Source: Elusimicrobiota bacterium
Lineage (GTDB): Bacteria > Elusimicrobiota > Elusimicrobia > UBA1565 > UBA9628
Length of the DNA: 64,000 bases
Reading direction: 5' to 3'
NCBI GenBank assembly: GCA_044450965.1
Contig: JBIOJO010000011.1
Span: 13,091-77,090, forward strand
Positions 53,478-56,571 of this stretch are shown here, piece after piece. The position numbers and the translations under genes were made by a program. The notes beneath the pieces were generated by a model. That model was not told the DNA's origin and ran no database searches. It worked only from the letters and a program-made list of their open reading frames with translations. The first letter of the stretch is position 1, and each line of letters opens with the position of its first letter.

Positions 53478-53506
53478 TTGACATCGAACAGATGTTCGAT
53501 TAAGCT
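53478..53506 (+). promoter_or_regulatory. Sigma70-like promoter (TTGACA-N17-TAAGCT) with an embedded Cheo-type LexA box CGAACAGATGTTCG (53485-53498)
   Basis: Exact match to the CGAACRNRYGTTCG SOS-box consensus, overlapping the -35/spacer, 15 nt upstream of the ImuA-like gene. Confidence 0.7.
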
Positions 53507-53512
53507 GTAGGG

Positions 53513-54142
53513 GTGGCGTCTCCGCAGCACCCCGTCCCCGTCGAAAACTCGCTGGCCGGAACAGAGTCCCTCAGGCCTTTGCTCCAGGACGGACGCATTG
53601 CGCCCGGACGCTACTCGGTGTCCGGCCCGCGCGATCTGAGCGGGCGCTTTCTCACGGCGTTGTGCCCGGCGCTGCTGAGCGGCACGCGCGTGCTGTGGCT
53701 GGACGCGGGGAATTCCTTCAACGCCTACGGGCTGGGCTACGCGTCGCGCTTCTTCGGGGCGGACGCGCGCGCGGCGCTGGCGCGCGTGGAACTGGCGCGG
53801 CCGTTCAACCTCTATCAGCTGGAGACGATGGTAAAGGTGAAGGTTCCGGAGCGCTGGCGCGGGGAGCCCATCGTGATCTCCGATCCGATGCCTTTGTTCT
53901 ACGACGAGGACGTGCCCGCGGCCGCGGCGCGGCGGGTGCTGGCGCGCGTGCTGGAGGGAATGGCGGCCCTGCCGGCGGTGTGGCTGGTGCTGACCGCGGA
54001 CCGCGAGGCGCCCGCGGGGCGCGAGGGCTGGGAAGATTTATTGAGCAAGAACGCGCATGGCGCGATGAGGTTCTATGGGCCGGACATTGCCGACGATCGT
54101 GCAGACGCTTCAGGCGGAAGAGGAAGCGTGGAAGCTGTTTAG
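53513..54142 (+). CDS. ImuA/SulA-like RecA-fold protein with degenerate Walker motifs (SOS-cassette first gene)
   Basis: VLWLDAGNSFNAYGLGYA parallels the RecA AFIDAEHALDPIYA core; ~209 aa, as for ImuA/SulA. LexA box upstream. Confidence 0.55.
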   Translation: MASPQHPVPVENSLAGTESLRPLLQDGRIAPGRYSVSGPRDLSGRFLTALCPALLSGTRVLWLDAGNSFNAYGLGYASRFFGADARAALARVELARPFNLYQLETMVKVKVPERWRGEPIVISDPMPLFYDEDVPAAAARRVLARVLEGMAALPAVWLVLTADREAPAGREGWEDLLSKNAHGAMRFYGPDIADDRADASGGRGSVEAV

Positions 54143-54362
54143 GCGGGCGCTGCGCAAGGAAGACCAGGAGGCGTTCGACGCGCTGTGGCGCTTCGCGCGC
54201 TACCACGCGGCGCCGGCGTCCATGGCCAGCCGGCCCATGCCGTTCGAGGCGGCGCTGATGGCGATGCTGGTGGCCGTGGAGCGGCAGCTCCTGGAGATGG
54301 AGCGGCTGGAGAAGAAGCGGAGAGCGGATGCCGACGGAAAAAACGGAGGGGTGGATCTTTGA
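54075..54362 (+). CDS. Small hypothetical protein (95 aa) between the ImuA-like gene and polB
   Basis: ORF overlapping both neighbours; helical, charged. Start uncertain. Confidence 0.4.
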   Translation: MGRTLPTIVQTLQAEEEAWKLFRRALRKEDQEAFDALWRFARYHAAPASMASRPMPFEAALMAMLVAVERQLLEMERLEKKRRADADGKNGGVDL

Positions 54363-56571
54363 CGCGTATCCCGAGGAAGAGGGGATGCGGGTCTGGATCG
54401 TGGAGCGCGGCGGCGGGCGGCGCTCCGTGCTGGACGCGTGGCGCCCCGCGTTCCATGTGGGCGGGGATTGCTCGACGCTGAAGAAGGCTCTGCGTCTGCT
54501 GGCGCGCCTTCCGTACCGCGCCGAGACGGGGATGGTCGAGAAAAAAGAGCTGTTCCGCGGGGAAATCCTGCGCGTTCTGGAAATCCGCGTGCCCGTGTTG
54601 GAGCGCGATCCATTGGTCAAGCGGCTGGCCGGAATGGAACTGCCGCTGTACGACGCGGACATGCATTTGGTGCAGGCCTACCATTATGACCGCGGCCACT
54701 TCCCCTTGGCGCTGTGCGGCTTTGAAATCGACGGCGATCGCATGGTCTCCCATGAATTGCGCGACGATCCATGGGCGGTCGATTACGAGCTCCCGCCGCT
54801 GACGACGATGCATTTGTCGTTGACGGGCTCGGAAATAGTCGGCGCGCTGGATCCAAACCATTCTGCGCGAGGAAGAATCGTGCTGTCGATGGACGGCCGC
54901 GCCTACGAGCTCGAGGGCCGCATGGAAGAACAGCTCGAGACCGTGTCTTGTCGTTTGAAAAAATGGGATCCAGATGTCATCACCACGGACTGGGGCGACA
55001 GCGTTCTGATGCCGGAGCTGGACCGGCTCTCGAAAGAACTCCGGGTGCCGTTGAATTTCTCGCGCGAGACGGGACGCGAGATGGCGGGCAAAAAAGAACG
55101 GACCTTTTTTTCGTATGGCCGCGTCGTTTACCAGGGCGGGGCGCGTTATCTGTTCGGGCGCTGGCACCTGGACGTCAAAAACAGCTTCATGATCCAACAA
55201 ACGGACACGGCGGGGCTATTCGAGATCGCGCGGATCGCGAAGATCCCGGTGCAGCGGGCGGCGCGCTGCACGATCGGGACGAGCCTCAGCTCCATGCAGA
55301 TGGCGTGGGCGTGGACGAACGGGATCTTGATTCCGATGGAGAAGCAGCAGGCGGAGGATTTCCGGCCGGCGACGGACCTGCTCATCGCGGACAAGGGCGG
55401 GCTGGTGTATGAGCCGGAGGTGGGCTGGCACCGCGAGGTGGCCGAGTACGACTTCACCTCCATGTATCCGGAGATGATGGTCCAGCGCAACATCTCCCCG
55501 GAGACGGTGAACTGCGGGTGCTGTCCGGAGAATGTGGTGCCGGAGATCGGTCATCACCTCTGTACGAAGCGGCGGGGTCTGGTGCCGTCGGTGCTGGCGC
55601 CCATTCTGGAGAAGCGGGCGAAGTACAAGGCGCTGTACAAGAAAAAAGGCCCGGGCTGGGAGGTTTACAAGGCGCGGGCCGACGCGCACAAGTGGACCTT
55701 GGTGTGCTGCTTCGGCTACCTGGGATTTAAAAACGCGCGCTTCGGGAAGATCGAGGCGCACGAGTGCGTGACGGCGTGGGGGCGGGAGGTGCTGCTGCGC
55801 GCGAAGGACGCGGTGGAGAGGCGGGGCTATCATCTTCTGCACGCGTTGGTGGACTCCATTTGGATCCGGATCGGGCCGGGCGCGGATTTGGAGGAGCTGC
55901 GGCTGGCGATCGAGAAGGAGGCGGAGTGTCCGCTGGCGCTGGAAGGGGTGTACGAGTGGATCCGTTATTGTCCGTCGAAGCAGGACGCGCTGTCCGGGGT
56001 GCCGGGGCGCTACTTCGGGGCGTTCAAGACGGGGGAGTTGAAGATCCGCGGCATCGCCTCAAGACGGCGCGACACGCCGAAGCTGTTTAAGAACATGCAG
56101 GGCGAACTGCTTTCGAAGCTGGCGGGAATTTCACCCGGCGCGGACCTGAAGACCTTGGTTCCCGCCTTGCTGGACATCGTGGAGGATTATCGCCTGCGCG
56201 TGCGCGAGGGGCAGGTCACGGCGGAGGAACTCGCGATTGCGTTCCATTTGTCCCGAGCGCCGGAAGAATATATGCACGACACGGTGTCGTCCACGGCGGC
56301 CAAGCAGCTGGCCGCGTCCGGGGTGACCTTGCACGTGGGGGAGACGGTGAGGTATGTGATCACCAACGCCCGCGACAAGGTGAAGGACTGGCGGTCCAAG
56401 CCATTGGCGCTGATGGAGAACGGGCTGGAGTACGACGTGAAGAAATATTTGGAGCTGCTGGAGCGCGCGGCGCTGGAAATTCTCGACGGGTTGGTGCCAG
56501 CGCCCCCGCCGGCGAAAAAGAACGCGGCGCTCGCGATCCAGGCGTTGGAGTTGCCTTTGATCTGGGGATGA
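54328..56571 (+). CDS. Family-B DNA polymerase, exonuclease motifs replaced (predicted exo-deficient), degenerate motif C
   Basis: Motif A YDFTSMYPEMM; K-x-Y-like GRYFGAF. Motif C reads LVDS instead of DTDS. The Exo I region FDIE aligns to MHLS. N-terminal domain resembles archaeal PolB N-termini. Confidence 0.85.
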   Translation: MPTEKTEGWIFDAYPEEEGMRVWIVERGGGRRSVLDAWRPAFHVGGDCSTLKKALRLLARLPYRAETGMVEKKELFRGEILRVLEIRVPVLERDPLVKRLAGMELPLYDADMHLVQAYHYDRGHFPLALCGFEIDGDRMVSHELRDDPWAVDYELPPLTTMHLSLTGSEIVGALDPNHSARGRIVLSMDGRAYELEGRMEEQLETVSCRLKKWDPDVITTDWGDSVLMPELDRLSKELRVPLNFSRETGREMAGKKERTFFSYGRVVYQGGARYLFGRWHLDVKNSFMIQQTDTAGLFEIARIAKIPVQRAARCTIGTSLSSMQMAWAWTNGILIPMEKQQAEDFRPATDLLIADKGGLVYEPEVGWHREVAEYDFTSMYPEMMVQRNISPETVNCGCCPENVVPEIGHHLCTKRRGLVPSVLAPILEKRAKYKALYKKKGPGWEVYKARADAHKWTLVCCFGYLGFKNARFGKIEAHECVTAWGREVLLRAKDAVERRGYHLLHALVDSIWIRIGPGADLEELRLAIEKEAECPLALEGVYEWIRYCPSKQDALSGVPGRYFGAFKTGELKIRGIASRRRDTPKLFKNMQGELLSKLAGISPGADLKTLVPALLDIVEDYRLRVREGQVTAEELAIAFHLSRAPEEYMHDTVSSTAAKQLAASGVTLHVGETVRYVITNARDKVKDWRSKPLALMENGLEYDVKKYLELLERAALEILDGLVPAPPPAKKNAALAIQALELPLIWG

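What the first reader, a model, noticed from the sequence alone, without database searches (positions are those of the whole stretch)
53478..56571. LexA-box-controlled cassette pairing an ImuA/SulA-like RecA-fold protein with an exonuclease-dead family-B DNA polymerase
A perfect Cheo-type SOS box (CGAACAGATGTTCG, 53485-53498) lies inside a TTGACA-N17-TAAGCT promoter. It is followed by three overlapping genes. Gene 1 is 209 aa with a RecA-like VLWLDAGNSFNAYGLGYA core and degenerate Walker motifs, as in ImuA/SulA. Gene 2 is 95 aa. Gene 3 is a 747-aa PolB in which Exo I is MHLS instead of FDIE, motif C is LVDS instead of DTDS, and motif A (YDFTSMYPEMM) is intact. Known SOS mutagenesis cassettes are imuA-imuB-dnaE2 (C-family) or umuDC (Y-family). 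This gene order instead recalls imuA-imuB-dnaE2 with a B-family polymerase in place of ImuB/DnaE2. To my knowledge that combination has not been described, but I cannot run a literature or database search. It would suggest an alternative damage-inducible translesion or mutagenic module.
Basis: partly seen in the sequence, partly recalled or inferred. Interest (0 to 1): 0.9.

Follow-up and report, generated by a model that had tools for sequence, protein, structure and literature searches.

The report
SOS-controlled bacterial PolB2 mutasome operon
This is a real, probably DNA-damage-inducible three-gene operon for a proofreading-free family-B polymerase and its two partner proteins, but it is the already described iRadA-PPB2-PolB2 "PolB2 mutasome" that bacteria acquired from archaea, not a new system.

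Summary
The sequence observation holds. A perfect CGAACAGATGTTCG palindrome (53485-53498) lies between TTGACA and TAAGCT. Three overlapping genes follow, of 209, 95 and 747 aa. The window comes from an Elusimicrobiota MAG.

- Gene 3 is a family-B polymerase with no Exo I or Exo II carboxylates. Motif C reads LVD instead of DTD, and motif A is intact.
- Gene 1 folds as a Rad51/RadA-type ATPase core with a dead P-loop. It is not closest to ImuA or SulA.
- Gene 2 is a three-helix protein that starts with the invariant MGRT arm.

This matches the published iRadA-PPB2-PolB2 operon (Makarova 2014, PMC4104785; Timinskas 2025, PMC11791011). That operon is archaeal in origin and was transferred to bacteria. 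It always has this gene order in bacteria and is enriched for neighbouring lexA. The 2025 supplement lists Elusimicrobiota operons, including a 73%-identical ortholog.

My own additions are small:
- The operator and promoter are conserved in ten orthologous loci, and the N4 spacer varies.
- The start codon usually lies 6 nt after the -10 box, which suggests a leaderless transcript.
- In relatives, lexA is the first gene of the operon or lies just downstream of it.
- PolB2 ends in a beta-clamp-like motif.

Verdict: real and correctly read as an SOS translesion module, but already known. Interest is low to moderate.

The parts
53478..53483 (+). -35 hexamer TTGACA
   Evidence: Read directly. A cTTGac element is conserved at the same distance from the palindrome in orthologous loci.
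53483..53500 (.). Putative LexA operator: 18-bp palindrome ATCGAAC-AGAT-GTTCGAT, with the Cheo-type core CGAACAGATGTTCG at 53485-53498
   Evidence: Only perfect match in the window, 0.10 expected by chance. The half-sites are conserved and N4 varies in ten orthologous loci: window, L001, L002, L004, L007, L013, L135, L136, L137, L138. The same extended motif lies upstream of recA, lexA and an IMS-family polymerase gene in unrelated metagenome contigs.
53501..53506 (+). -10 hexamer TAAGCT (weak, 3 of 6 to TATAAT)
   Evidence: Spacer of 17 nt. Orthologs have TATACT, TATGCT, TAAACT or TACACT here. The consensus scan did not call it.
53513..54142 (+). iRadA: inactivated RadA/Rad51-like ATPase core, 209 aa, GTG start 6 nt after the -10 box (probably leaderless)
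54075..54362 (+). PPB2 (arCOG07300 / Pfam DUF8156): 95-aa three-helix partner protein with the N-terminal MGRT arm
   Evidence: MGRTLPTI is identical in all nine loci compared, and most of them have a GAGG-type SD about 7 nt upstream. Homologs carry the precomputed Pfam family PF26485, DUF8156. The AF2 monomer shows helices 5-25, 28-44 and 57-88 at low confidence, pLDDT 64. The 'MGRT' motif is defined in PMC11791011.
54328..56571 (+). PolB2: exonuclease-dead family-B DNA polymerase, 747 aa
   Evidence: Pfam DNA_pol_B. The best NCBIfam model is NF004416 at 366 bits, against 168 for the PolB1-type model and 49 for Pol II. NF004416 is the model that an archaeal PolB2 fragment from the 2025 supplement hits above its cutoff, at 538 bits. 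Identity is 30% to that Methanoregula PolB2, and 73% and 58% to the catalogued Elusimicrobiota PolB2s P0059 and P0077.
54814..54825 (+). Degenerate Exo I: L-S-L-T in place of F-D-I-E
   Evidence: phmmer alignment to 5mdn. The column has no DxE in any of 34 homologs.
55447..55470 (+). Polymerase motif A, YDFTSMYP (D375)
   Evidence: D375 is invariant in 34 homologs.
55513..55563 (+). Invariant Cys/His cluster C396-x-C398-C399...H409-x2-C412
   Evidence: Invariant columns in alignment A2. The Methanoregula PolB2 has a 13-residue gap here. Function unknown; a metal site or disulfide is a guess.
55840..55857 (+). Polymerase motif C, H-A-L-V-D-S (DTD changed to LVD; D509 kept)
   Evidence: H505, V508 and D509 are invariant. 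The same 'LVD' is listed for Elusimicrobiota PolB2 in the supplement of PMC11791011.
56539..56568 (+). C-terminal QALELPLIWG: candidate beta-clamp-binding motif
   Evidence: L-x-L-P-L-[IVL]-[WFY] recurs at the C-terminus of many homologs, and some relatives end in QPELF. PMC11791011 reports clamp motifs in either PolB2 or iRadA of bacterial operons. This rests on sequence pattern only.

Best explanation
The locus is an Elusimicrobiota copy of the iRadA-PPB2-PolB2 operon, the 'PolB2 mutasome'. This is an archaeal translesion-polymerase module that bacteria acquired by horizontal transfer. Here it sits under a LexA-type operator.

Proposed mechanism, with the status of each step:
1. Without damage, a LexA dimer occupies the ATCGAAC-N4-GTTCGAT palindrome, which fills the spacer between the -35 and -10 boxes and blocks RNA polymerase. 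This is inferred from position, conservation and lexA synteny.
2. DNA damage leads to RecA-stimulated LexA self-cleavage and derepression. This is established SOS biology, not tested here.
3. A tricistronic and probably leaderless mRNA starts at or next to the GTG at 53513. This is inferred from the conserved 6-nt gap after the -10 box.
4. PPB2 and PolB2 are translated from their own Shine-Dalgarno sites inside the overlaps. The sites are visible in the sequence.
5. The products assemble as one PolB2, one iRadA and a PPB2 trimer, with the MGRT arm inserted between PolB2 and iRadA. This comes only from the AlphaFold models in PMC11791011 and was not tested here.
6. The complex may dock on the beta clamp through the PolB2 C-terminus. 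This is inferred from a sequence pattern.
7. The polymerase, which lacks proofreading, extends mismatched or lesion-opposed primer ends and so produces damage-induced mutations. This is by analogy with Sulfolobus Dpo2, the only member studied experimentally.
For: Identity of the three genes:
- The polymerase matches best the NCBIfam model that archaeal PolB2 hits above its cutoff. It has motif C LVD, an intact motif A and no Exo I or Exo II carboxylates.
- Gene 1 has a RadA/Rad51-type fold, no N-terminal domain and a dead P-loop.
- Gene 2 starts with the invariant MGRT arm, is predicted as three helices, and its homologs carry DUF8156.
- The gene order iRadA-PPB2-PolB2 is conserved in every related locus that spans all three genes.
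- Orthologs P0059 (73% identity) and P0077 (58%) are listed as PolB2 operons in the supplement of PMC11791011.

Regulation:
- The operator and promoter are conserved in ten loci with a variable N4.
- In L010-L012, lexA is the first gene of the operon. Its promoter has TGAACATCTGTACA between TTGACA and TATACT.
- In L008 and L009, lexA lies immediately downstream of polB2.
- The literature reports lexA enrichment next to bacterial polB2.
- The same extended box precedes recA, lexA and an IMS-family polymerase gene elsewhere.

Function: Dpo2 is damage-inducible, required for targeted mutagenesis, and acts as a mismatch extender, as summarised in PMC11791011.
Against: - No bacterial PolB2 operon has been tested experimentally. 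Polymerase activity, complex formation and mutagenesis are all extrapolated from Sulfolobus and from structure models.
- No lexA gene lies in the 64-kb window, and LexA binding to this palindrome is untested.
- The score against NF004416 is below that model's equivalog cutoff (366 against 516 bits).
- The -10 hexamer is weak.
- The PPB2 monomer model is of low confidence.
- The D(K/R) loop motif described for PolB2 is only loosely recognisable. R258 is conserved, but the acidic residue before it is not.
- More distant Elusimicrobiota loci (L008, L009) lack GAAC-N4-GTTC upstream.
Confidence: 0.8

Rival explanations
1. The polymerase is catalytically dead. The three proteins would then form a non-enzymatic regulatory or scaffolding complex, for example acting at stalled forks or in replication control.
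For: The first Asp of motif C is lost, and the exonuclease carboxylates I could align (Exo I, Exo II) are lost. In motif B, NS is replaced by CC and the Tyr by Phe. Makarova et al. 2014 proposed inactivation.
Against: Sulfolobus Dpo2 carries the same type of substitution (IID). According to PMC11791011 it is nevertheless active and required for damage-induced mutagenesis. The motif A Asp, the second motif C Asp and the motif B Lys are invariant across 34 homologs, which would be unexpected in a dead enzyme.
Confidence: 0.1
2. The palindrome is not a LexA operator. It would be either a chance inverted repeat or the site of another regulator, so the operon is not SOS-controlled.
For: A single occurrence in 64 kb is seen in 10% of shuffles. 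There is no lexA in the window. L008 and L009 carry different palindromes upstream.
Against: The half-sites are conserved and the spacer varies in ten orthologous loci, always between the -35 and -10 boxes. lexA is fused into or adjacent to the operon in relatives. The motif equals the Cheo-type LexA box and precedes recA and lexA in other metagenome contigs.
Confidence: 0.07
3. The cassette is a new SOS mutagenesis module of bacterial origin, analogous to imuA-imuB-dnaE2, in which an ImuA/SulA-like protein was paired with a family-B polymerase.
For: There is a superficial parallel: an inactive RecA-superfamily gene comes first, a polymerase comes last, and a LexA box lies upstream.
Against: Gene 1 is closest to RadA, Rad51 and DMC1, not to ImuA or SulA. 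There is no Y-family or C-family gene. The operon, its gene order and its lexA link are published, with Elusimicrobiota examples. The polymerase groups with archaeal PolB2 models.
Confidence: 0.02
4. The polymerase belongs to a mobile element or an anti-phage defence system, such as a casposon, a pipolin or a defence-associated PolB.
For: PolB2 reached bacteria by horizontal transfer. The neighbours of the three-gene block differ between loci.
Against: PADLOC gives no defence-system hit; its only hit is a homing-endonuclease model (HEase), matched over polymerase residues 461-709. The flanks carry no integrase, Cas1 or terminal repeats. The neighbours I scanned are an OMP beta-barrel protein, a protein with HEAT repeats, an FKBP-type isomerase, an HMA-domain protein and a histidine kinase. 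GC content of the cassette is 64.7% against 66.7% for the window.
Confidence: 0.02

Closest known systems
Bacterial iRadA-PPB2-PolB2 operon ('PolB2 mutasome'; Makarova et al. 2014, PMC4104785; Timinskas et al. 2025, PMC11791011), including the catalogued Elusimicrobiota operons UPT75586-88 and OIO08417-19
   Same: The three gene families and their order are the same. So are motif C LVD, the dead exonuclease, the MGRT arm of PPB2 and the dead P-loop of iRadA. SRAP or lexA are neighbours in relatives. PolB2 identity to the listed members is 73% and 58%.
   Different: Nothing essential differs. This locus has no lexA or SRAP gene beside it. Instead it carries an explicit LexA-type operator in a probably leaderless promoter. 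The papers in the searched library do not mention that detail: 'SOS box' occurs 0 times in PMC11791011.
Sulfolobus/Saccharolobus Dpo2 (archaeal PolB2) with arCOG07300 and the inactivated RadA
   Same: The components are homologous and expression is damage-inducible. The first motif C Asp is lost and there is no proofreading. The role as a translesion extender is inferred.
   Different: - Gene order is PPB2-PolB2-iRadA in Sulfolobales.
- Regulation there runs through Orc1-2 rather than LexA.
- The clamp there is PCNA rather than the beta clamp.
- Identity to an archaeal PolB2 is only about 30%.
- The bacterial protein has an extra Cys/His cluster.
E. coli Pol V mutasome (UmuD'2C-RecA)
   Same: Both are SOS-controlled multisubunit mutagenic polymerases that use a RecA-family subunit, a small subunit with an N-terminal arm and a clamp motif. 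The parallel is architectural and is drawn in PMC11791011.
   Different: The catalytic subunit of Pol V is Y-family, not B-family. Its RecA is the active cellular recombinase, not a dedicated inactive paralog. The components are not homologous, apart from the RecA superfamily.
imuA-imuB-dnaE2 SOS mutagenesis cassette
   Same: Both are LexA-controlled, with an inactive RecA-superfamily gene first and an error-prone polymerase last.
   Different: Here there is no ImuB (Y-family) and no DnaE2 (C-family). Gene 1 is RadA/Rad51-like rather than ImuA-like. The evolutionary origin is different (archaeal).
E. coli Pol II (polB)
   Same: It is a family-B, SOS-inducible extender polymerase that binds the beta clamp.
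   Different: Pol II is a single subunit with an active 3'-5' exonuclease. The NCBIfam Pol II models score only 49 bits or less here, against 366 for the PolB2-type model.

Membership tests
PolB2 mutasome operon (iRadA-PPB2-PolB2) | The catalytic subunit is a family-B polymerase of the PolB2 group rather than PolB1, PolB3 or Pol II | tested here: met
   The best NCBIfam model is NF004416 at 366 bits. PolB1-type models score 168, 145 and 104 bits, and Pol II 49. A Methanoregula PolB2 fragment from the 2025 supplement hits NF004416 at 538 bits, above its cutoff. Caveat: the window protein is below the equivalog cutoff of 516 bits, and I built no phylogeny.
PolB2 mutasome operon (iRadA-PPB2-PolB2) | The first Asp of motif C (DxD) is substituted, and the second Asp and the motif A Asp are kept | tested here: met
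   Motif C reads H-A-L-V-D-S. D375 and D509 are invariant in 34 homologs. 'LVD' is listed for Elusimicrobiota PolB2 in the supplement.
PolB2 mutasome operon (iRadA-PPB2-PolB2) | The exonuclease domain lacks its active site and is partly decayed | tested here: met
   Exo I FDIE aligns to LSLT, and the Exo II Asp aligns to Leu. Residues 250-281, where I expect the Exo III helix to lie, did not align to archaeal PolB.
PolB2 mutasome operon (iRadA-PPB2-PolB2) | iRadA has a RadA/Rad51-like ATPase core, lacks the N-terminal domain and has lost the ATPase residues | tested here: met
PolB2 mutasome operon (iRadA-PPB2-PolB2) | PPB2 is a helical protein of about 90 aa with three helices and a conserved N-terminal 'MGRT' arm | tested here: met
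   The protein is 95 aa. MGRTLPTI is invariant in nine loci. Helices are predicted at 5-25, 28-44 and 57-88 (low confidence). Homologs carry PF26485, DUF8156. Arg3 is present, but position 9 is Val, not Arg.
PolB2 mutasome operon (iRadA-PPB2-PolB2) | The genes are adjacent, on the same strand and, in bacteria, in the order iRadA-PPB2-PolB2 | tested here: met
   Shown in the window and in every related locus that spans all three genes.
PolB2 mutasome operon (iRadA-PPB2-PolB2) | PolB2 has a loop with a Rad51-oligomerisation-like beta-alpha motif followed by a D(K/R) motif | tested here: inconclusive
   A conserved [FLW]-S-R-[DE] lies at aa 244-247, and R258 is nearly invariant in x-R-[ST]-F-x-[ST]-Y-G. 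The acidic residue before R258 is not conserved, and I could not model the complex.
PolB2 mutasome operon (iRadA-PPB2-PolB2) | The proteins assemble as PolB2 : iRadA : 3 PPB2 | not testable with these tools
   Only single-chain prediction was available. The published models include the Elusimicrobia GWA2_69_24 operon.
PolB2 mutasome operon (iRadA-PPB2-PolB2) | A clamp-binding motif is present in either PolB2 or iRadA (seen in a fraction of operons) | tested here: inconclusive
   The PolB2 C-terminus is QALELPLIWG. The pattern L-x-L-P-L-[IVL]-[WFY] recurs in homologs, and some end in QPELF. This is a pattern match only. Conservation of the iRadA tail is confounded by its overlap with PPB2.
LexA (Cheo-type, GAAC-N4-GTTC) regulon | A palindromic operator overlaps the promoter of the regulated operon | tested here: met
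   The site at 53483-53500 lies between the -35 and -10 boxes. It is conserved in ten loci.
LexA (Cheo-type, GAAC-N4-GTTC) regulon | The cognate LexA binds the site, and the same motif occurs at lexA and recA of the same genome | not testable with these tools
   There is no lexA or recA in the window. Indirect support: lexA heads the operon in L010-L012 and has GAAC-N4-GTAC in its promoter.
imuA-imuB-dnaE2 cassette | ImuA together with a Y-family ImuB and a C-family DnaE2 | tested here: not met
   Pfam and NCBIfam show only DNA_pol_B. There is no IMS or DnaE domain. Gene 1 is closest to Rad51 and RadA.
E. coli-type Pol II | A single-subunit family-B polymerase with an active 3'-5' exonuclease | tested here: not met
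   The exonuclease motifs are lost. The Pol II models score 49 bits or less. The polymerase is encoded with two partner genes.

The most novel reading that the evidence does not exclude
In this Elusimicrobiota lineage, the PolB2 mutasome may be a direct member of the LexA regulon, expressed from a leaderless and operator-occluded promoter. It may also serve as the main SOS mutagenesis polymerase, taking the role that umuDC or imuA-imuB-dnaE2 play elsewhere. The conserved operator would then be the first explicit cis-regulatory evidence for SOS control of a bacterial PolB2 operon. It would also offer an easy entry point for testing an archaeal-type mutasome in bacteria.
Probability: 0.3. Interest if true: 0.45.

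Novelty: already known. Interest (0 to 1): 0.22.

Why it matters
The bacterial PolB2 mutasome has only been analysed in silico, and every functional statement about it rests on Sulfolobus Dpo2. This locus adds a clean promoter and operator architecture that is conserved across Elusimicrobiota. That architecture makes SOS control directly testable by EMSA, reporter fusions or 5'-RACE. It also flags an annotation problem: the functional MGRT arm of PPB2 is cut off in the public annotation of this contig. The locus does not reveal a new kind of system. Its value is confirmatory, and it could serve as a candidate for a first biochemical study of a bacterial PolB2 complex.

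Tried and rejected
- Genome scan. I used the single protein rather than an alignment. It returned only four close Elusimicrobiota loci and two unrelated Oceanispirochaeta PolBs (23-24% identity). 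No named archaeal PolB2 loci were obtained, so I built no phylogeny.
- Metagenome scan for TCGAAC-N4-GTTCGATTA. None of the 120 stretches carries the cassette. It shows only that the same extended box precedes recA, lexA and IMS-family genes in other bacteria. It could not define the SOS regulon of this clade.
- Search for lexA in the window with E. coli LexA by tblastn: nothing found.
- Local Pfam and NCBIfam scans of genes 1 and 2: no significant hit. The local Pfam copy gave no DUF8156 hit for gene 2, although DUF8156 (PF26485) is precomputed for its homologs.
- PADLOC: no defence system.
- Consensus promoter scan: it did not call the promoter, because TAAGCT matches only 3 of 6 positions.
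- PPB2 monomer model: too low in confidence (pLDDT 64, pTM 0.34) for a fold search, so none was run.
- The afdb50 fold library was unavailable. I therefore could not compare directly with the AlphaFold models of S. islandicus iRadA and PPB2.
- Looking for lexA within 10 kb of the closer orthologs P0004 and P0057: none found.
- ImuA/SulA affinity of gene 1: rejected on the fold rankings.
- Mobile-element or defence reading: rejected on the flanking genes and on GC content.

Full report
**1. The observation**

TTGACA lies at 53478-53483, CGAACAGATGTTCG at 53485-53498 and TAAGCT at 53501-53506, with a 17-nt spacer. The palindrome extends to 18 bp (ATCGAAC-AGAT-GTTCGAT, 53483-53500).

It is the only GAAC-N4-GTTC in the 64 kb. 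Shuffles give 0.10 expected CGAAC-N4-GTTCG per window, and 10 of 100 shuffles had at least one. One mismatch brings the count to chance level. Taken alone, the site is therefore only mildly improbable.

Three ORFs follow on the + strand: 53513-54142 (209 aa, GTG), 54075-54362 (95 aa) and 54328-56571 (747 aa). They overlap by 68 and 35 nt. The window comes from an Elusimicrobiota MAG, since all three proteins have matches of 99-100% identity annotated as 'MAG: Elusimicrobiota bacterium'.

**2. The polymerase**

Pfam gives DNA_pol_B. phmmer against PDB sequences aligns the protein best to archaeal family-B polymerases such as 5mdn and 4fm2, with E about 1e-36. That alignment shows the following:
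- Motif A is YDFTSMYP, intact.
- Motif C is H-A-L-V-D-S where the archaeal enzymes have G-D-T-D-S. The first Asp is lost and the second is kept.
- The Exo II Asp aligns to Leu.
- Residues 250-281, where I expect the Exo III helix to lie, did not align.

In 34 homologs, D375, D509 and the motif B Lys (K455) are invariant, and no member has a DxE at Exo I.

NCBIfam ranks NF004416 first at 366 bits, then NF004418 at 335 bits. PolB1-type models score 168 bits or less, and Pol II models 49 or less. A Methanoregula PolB2 fragment taken from the supplement of Timinskas et al. hits NF004416 at 538 bits, above its cutoff. NF004416 is therefore the PolB2-type model. The window protein is 30% identical to that archaeal PolB2.

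**3. Gene 1**

Gene 1 has no Pfam or NCBIfam hit. Its 91 homologs are all annotated as hypothetical.

The catalytic Glu of IDTE is Gly in this protein. The P-loop GKT is G-R-F here, and in relatives the Lys position is W, H or Q followed by F. The RadA N-terminal domain is absent. Gene 1 is therefore an inactivated RadA-like protein, not an ImuA/SulA-type one.

**4. Gene 2**

The protein starts MGRTLPTIVQ. This start is identical in all nine loci compared, and most of them have a GAGG-type Shine-Dalgarno sequence about 7 nt upstream. Its homologs carry the precomputed Pfam family PF26485, DUF8156. The AlphaFold2 monomer is of low confidence (pLDDT 64) but shows three helices behind a free N-terminal arm.

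**5. What the cassette is**

A full-text search led to two papers. Makarova et al. 2014 (PMC4104785) described the link between 'inactivated' PolB2, the small helical arCOG07300 protein and an inactivated RadA in archaea. They reported the same link in several bacteria, where lexA is sometimes in the same predicted operon, as in Leptospirillum.

Timinskas et al. 2025 (PMC11791011) renamed the partners PPB2 and iRadA and reported the following:
- a single archaea-to-bacteria transfer;
- the order iRadA-PPB2-PolB2 in all bacterial operons;
- enrichment of lexA and SRAP in the neighbourhood;
- the 'MGRT' arm of PPB2;
- substitution of the first DxD aspartate;
- clamp-binding motifs in either PolB2 or iRadA;
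- AlphaFold models of a heteropentamer of PolB2, iRadA and three PPB2 subunits.

Their supplement lists Elusimicrobiota operons. UPT75586-88 has SRAP upstream and motif C 'LVD'. Its N-terminal sequence is identical to P0059 from locus L007, which is 73% identical to the window PolB2. OIO08417-19 from 'Elusimicrobia bacterium CG1_02_63_36' has the arrangement LexA-iRadA-PPB2-PolB2. That strain name matches P0077 (loci L010-L012), which is 58% identical. A 2026 survey of bacterial polymerases treats this group as established (PMC12926913).

**6. Regulation**

The three-gene block is syntenic in every related locus fetched that spans all three genes, while the flanking genes differ.

In ten orthologous loci the upstream region reads tGGGyCTTGa(ca)tc-GAAC-N4-GTTC-ga(t/c)-TAnnCT, and the N4 varies. 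These loci are the window, L001, L002, L004, L007, L013, L135, L136, L137 and L138, and their iRadA identity to the window goes down to about 52%. Conserved half-sites with a free spacer are what a dimeric repressor site predicts. Independent traces of the site appear in over-extended ORF calls of homologs, whose N-termini read ...LDIEQMFDYT. That peptide is the translation of the operator itself.

In L010-L012, lexA is the first gene of the operon. Its promoter has TGAACATCTGTACA between TTGACA and TATACT. In L008 and L009, lexA lies directly downstream of polB2.

The same extended box (TCGAAC-N4-GTTCGATTA) precedes recA, lexA and an IMS-family polymerase gene in unrelated metagenome contigs. 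This fits the known Cheo-type LexA box.

No lexA lies in the window, and binding is untested. LexA control is therefore a well-supported inference, not a demonstration.

**7. Details I added**

- The iRadA start codon lies 6 nt after the -10 hexamer in eight loci. An in-frame TAA sits inside the -10 box, so no upstream start is possible. The mRNA is probably leaderless.
- PolB2 ends in QALELPLIWG. L-x-L-P-L-[IVL]-[WFY] recurs in homologs, and some relatives end in QPELF, so this is a candidate beta-clamp motif.
- Cassette GC content is 64.7% against 66.7% for the window. The flanks I scanned encode an OMP beta-barrel protein, a protein with HEAT repeats, an FKBP-type isomerase, an HMA-domain protein and a histidine kinase. 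PADLOC finds no defence system. I see no sign of a mobile element.

**8. Mechanism**

LexA would occlude the promoter. Damage would relieve the repression, and the three proteins would be made from one transcript. They would assemble into the modelled mutasome. The proofreading-free polymerase would then extend distorted primer ends, possibly on the beta clamp, and generate mutations.

Only the sequence anatomy and its conservation are shown here. Assembly rests on published models. Catalysis and mutagenesis rest on Sulfolobus Dpo2.

**9. Verdict**

Its novelty claim and its ImuA/SulA label are wrong. The system is already known, and this locus is one more Elusimicrobiota copy. Interest is low to moderate. 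It lies mainly in the fact that bacterial PolB2 mutasomes are untested experimentally, and that this promoter gives a direct handle on their regulation.

Noticed in passing
window 53501-53515; also L001, L002, L004, L007, L013, L136, L137: The iRadA start codon (GTG or ATG) lies exactly 6 nt after the -10 hexamer in eight loci, and an in-frame stop sits inside the -10 box. This implies a leaderless mRNA. L135 and L138 have 9 and 17 nt instead.
   Followed up: partly
window 54075-54098: The public annotation of the source contig calls PPB2 as 87 aa (P0225). That cuts off the invariant MGRTLPTI arm, which the literature treats as the key functional element. The 95-aa ATG start, with its upstream Shine-Dalgarno sequence, is the conserved one.
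   Followed up: yes
window 55513-55563 (PolB2 aa 396-412): An invariant cluster C-x-C-C...H-x2-C is present in all 34 Elusimicrobiota PolB2 homologs. The Methanoregula archaeal PolB2 has a 13-residue gap here. It could be a metal site or a disulfide; its function is unknown.
   Followed up: no
L013/L014 4325-6035: A second copy of the SOS-box promoter (GAACAAGTGTTC followed by TATACT) sits directly in front of PPB2. Two extra small genes (53-69 aa and 148 aa, no Pfam hit for the 148-aa one) lie between iRadA and PPB2. An unannotated gene of 346-367 aa follows polB2.
   Followed up: partly
L008 7180-7226 and L009 7140-7184: In the most distant Elusimicrobiota loci (iRadA about 35% identical), lexA lies right after polB2. 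The promoter palindromes there are TGTAC-N4-GTATA and TATAC-N4-GTATA rather than GAAC-N4-GTTC. L010 has GAAC-N4-GTAC. This may be drift of the LexA motif within the phylum.
   Followed up: no
L007 8001-10213 (CP096137.1): In this complete genome, polB2 is split into a 660-aa ORF and a 69-aa ORF that together cover the full protein. The cause is a frameshift, a pseudogene or a sequencing error. SRAP (fused to a patatin domain) is divergently upstream.
   Followed up: no
window 54075-54142: The iRadA C-terminal tail (aa 188-209; the model has pLDDT below 50 over residues 195-209) is encoded by the same nucleotides as the highly conserved PPB2 N-terminus, in another frame. Its apparent conservation (GGRGS-LEAL) may reflect constraint on PPB2 rather than a motif of its own.
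   Followed up: partly
L016, L039, L067, L027, L106 (metagenome contigs): The same TCGAAC-N4-GTTCGATTA box precedes genes whose N-termini look to me like ImuA-type proteins (…GPPGFGLTRLG…) and a DnaE2-like PHP protein. It also precedes a gene confirmed as IMS-family.
   Followed up: partly
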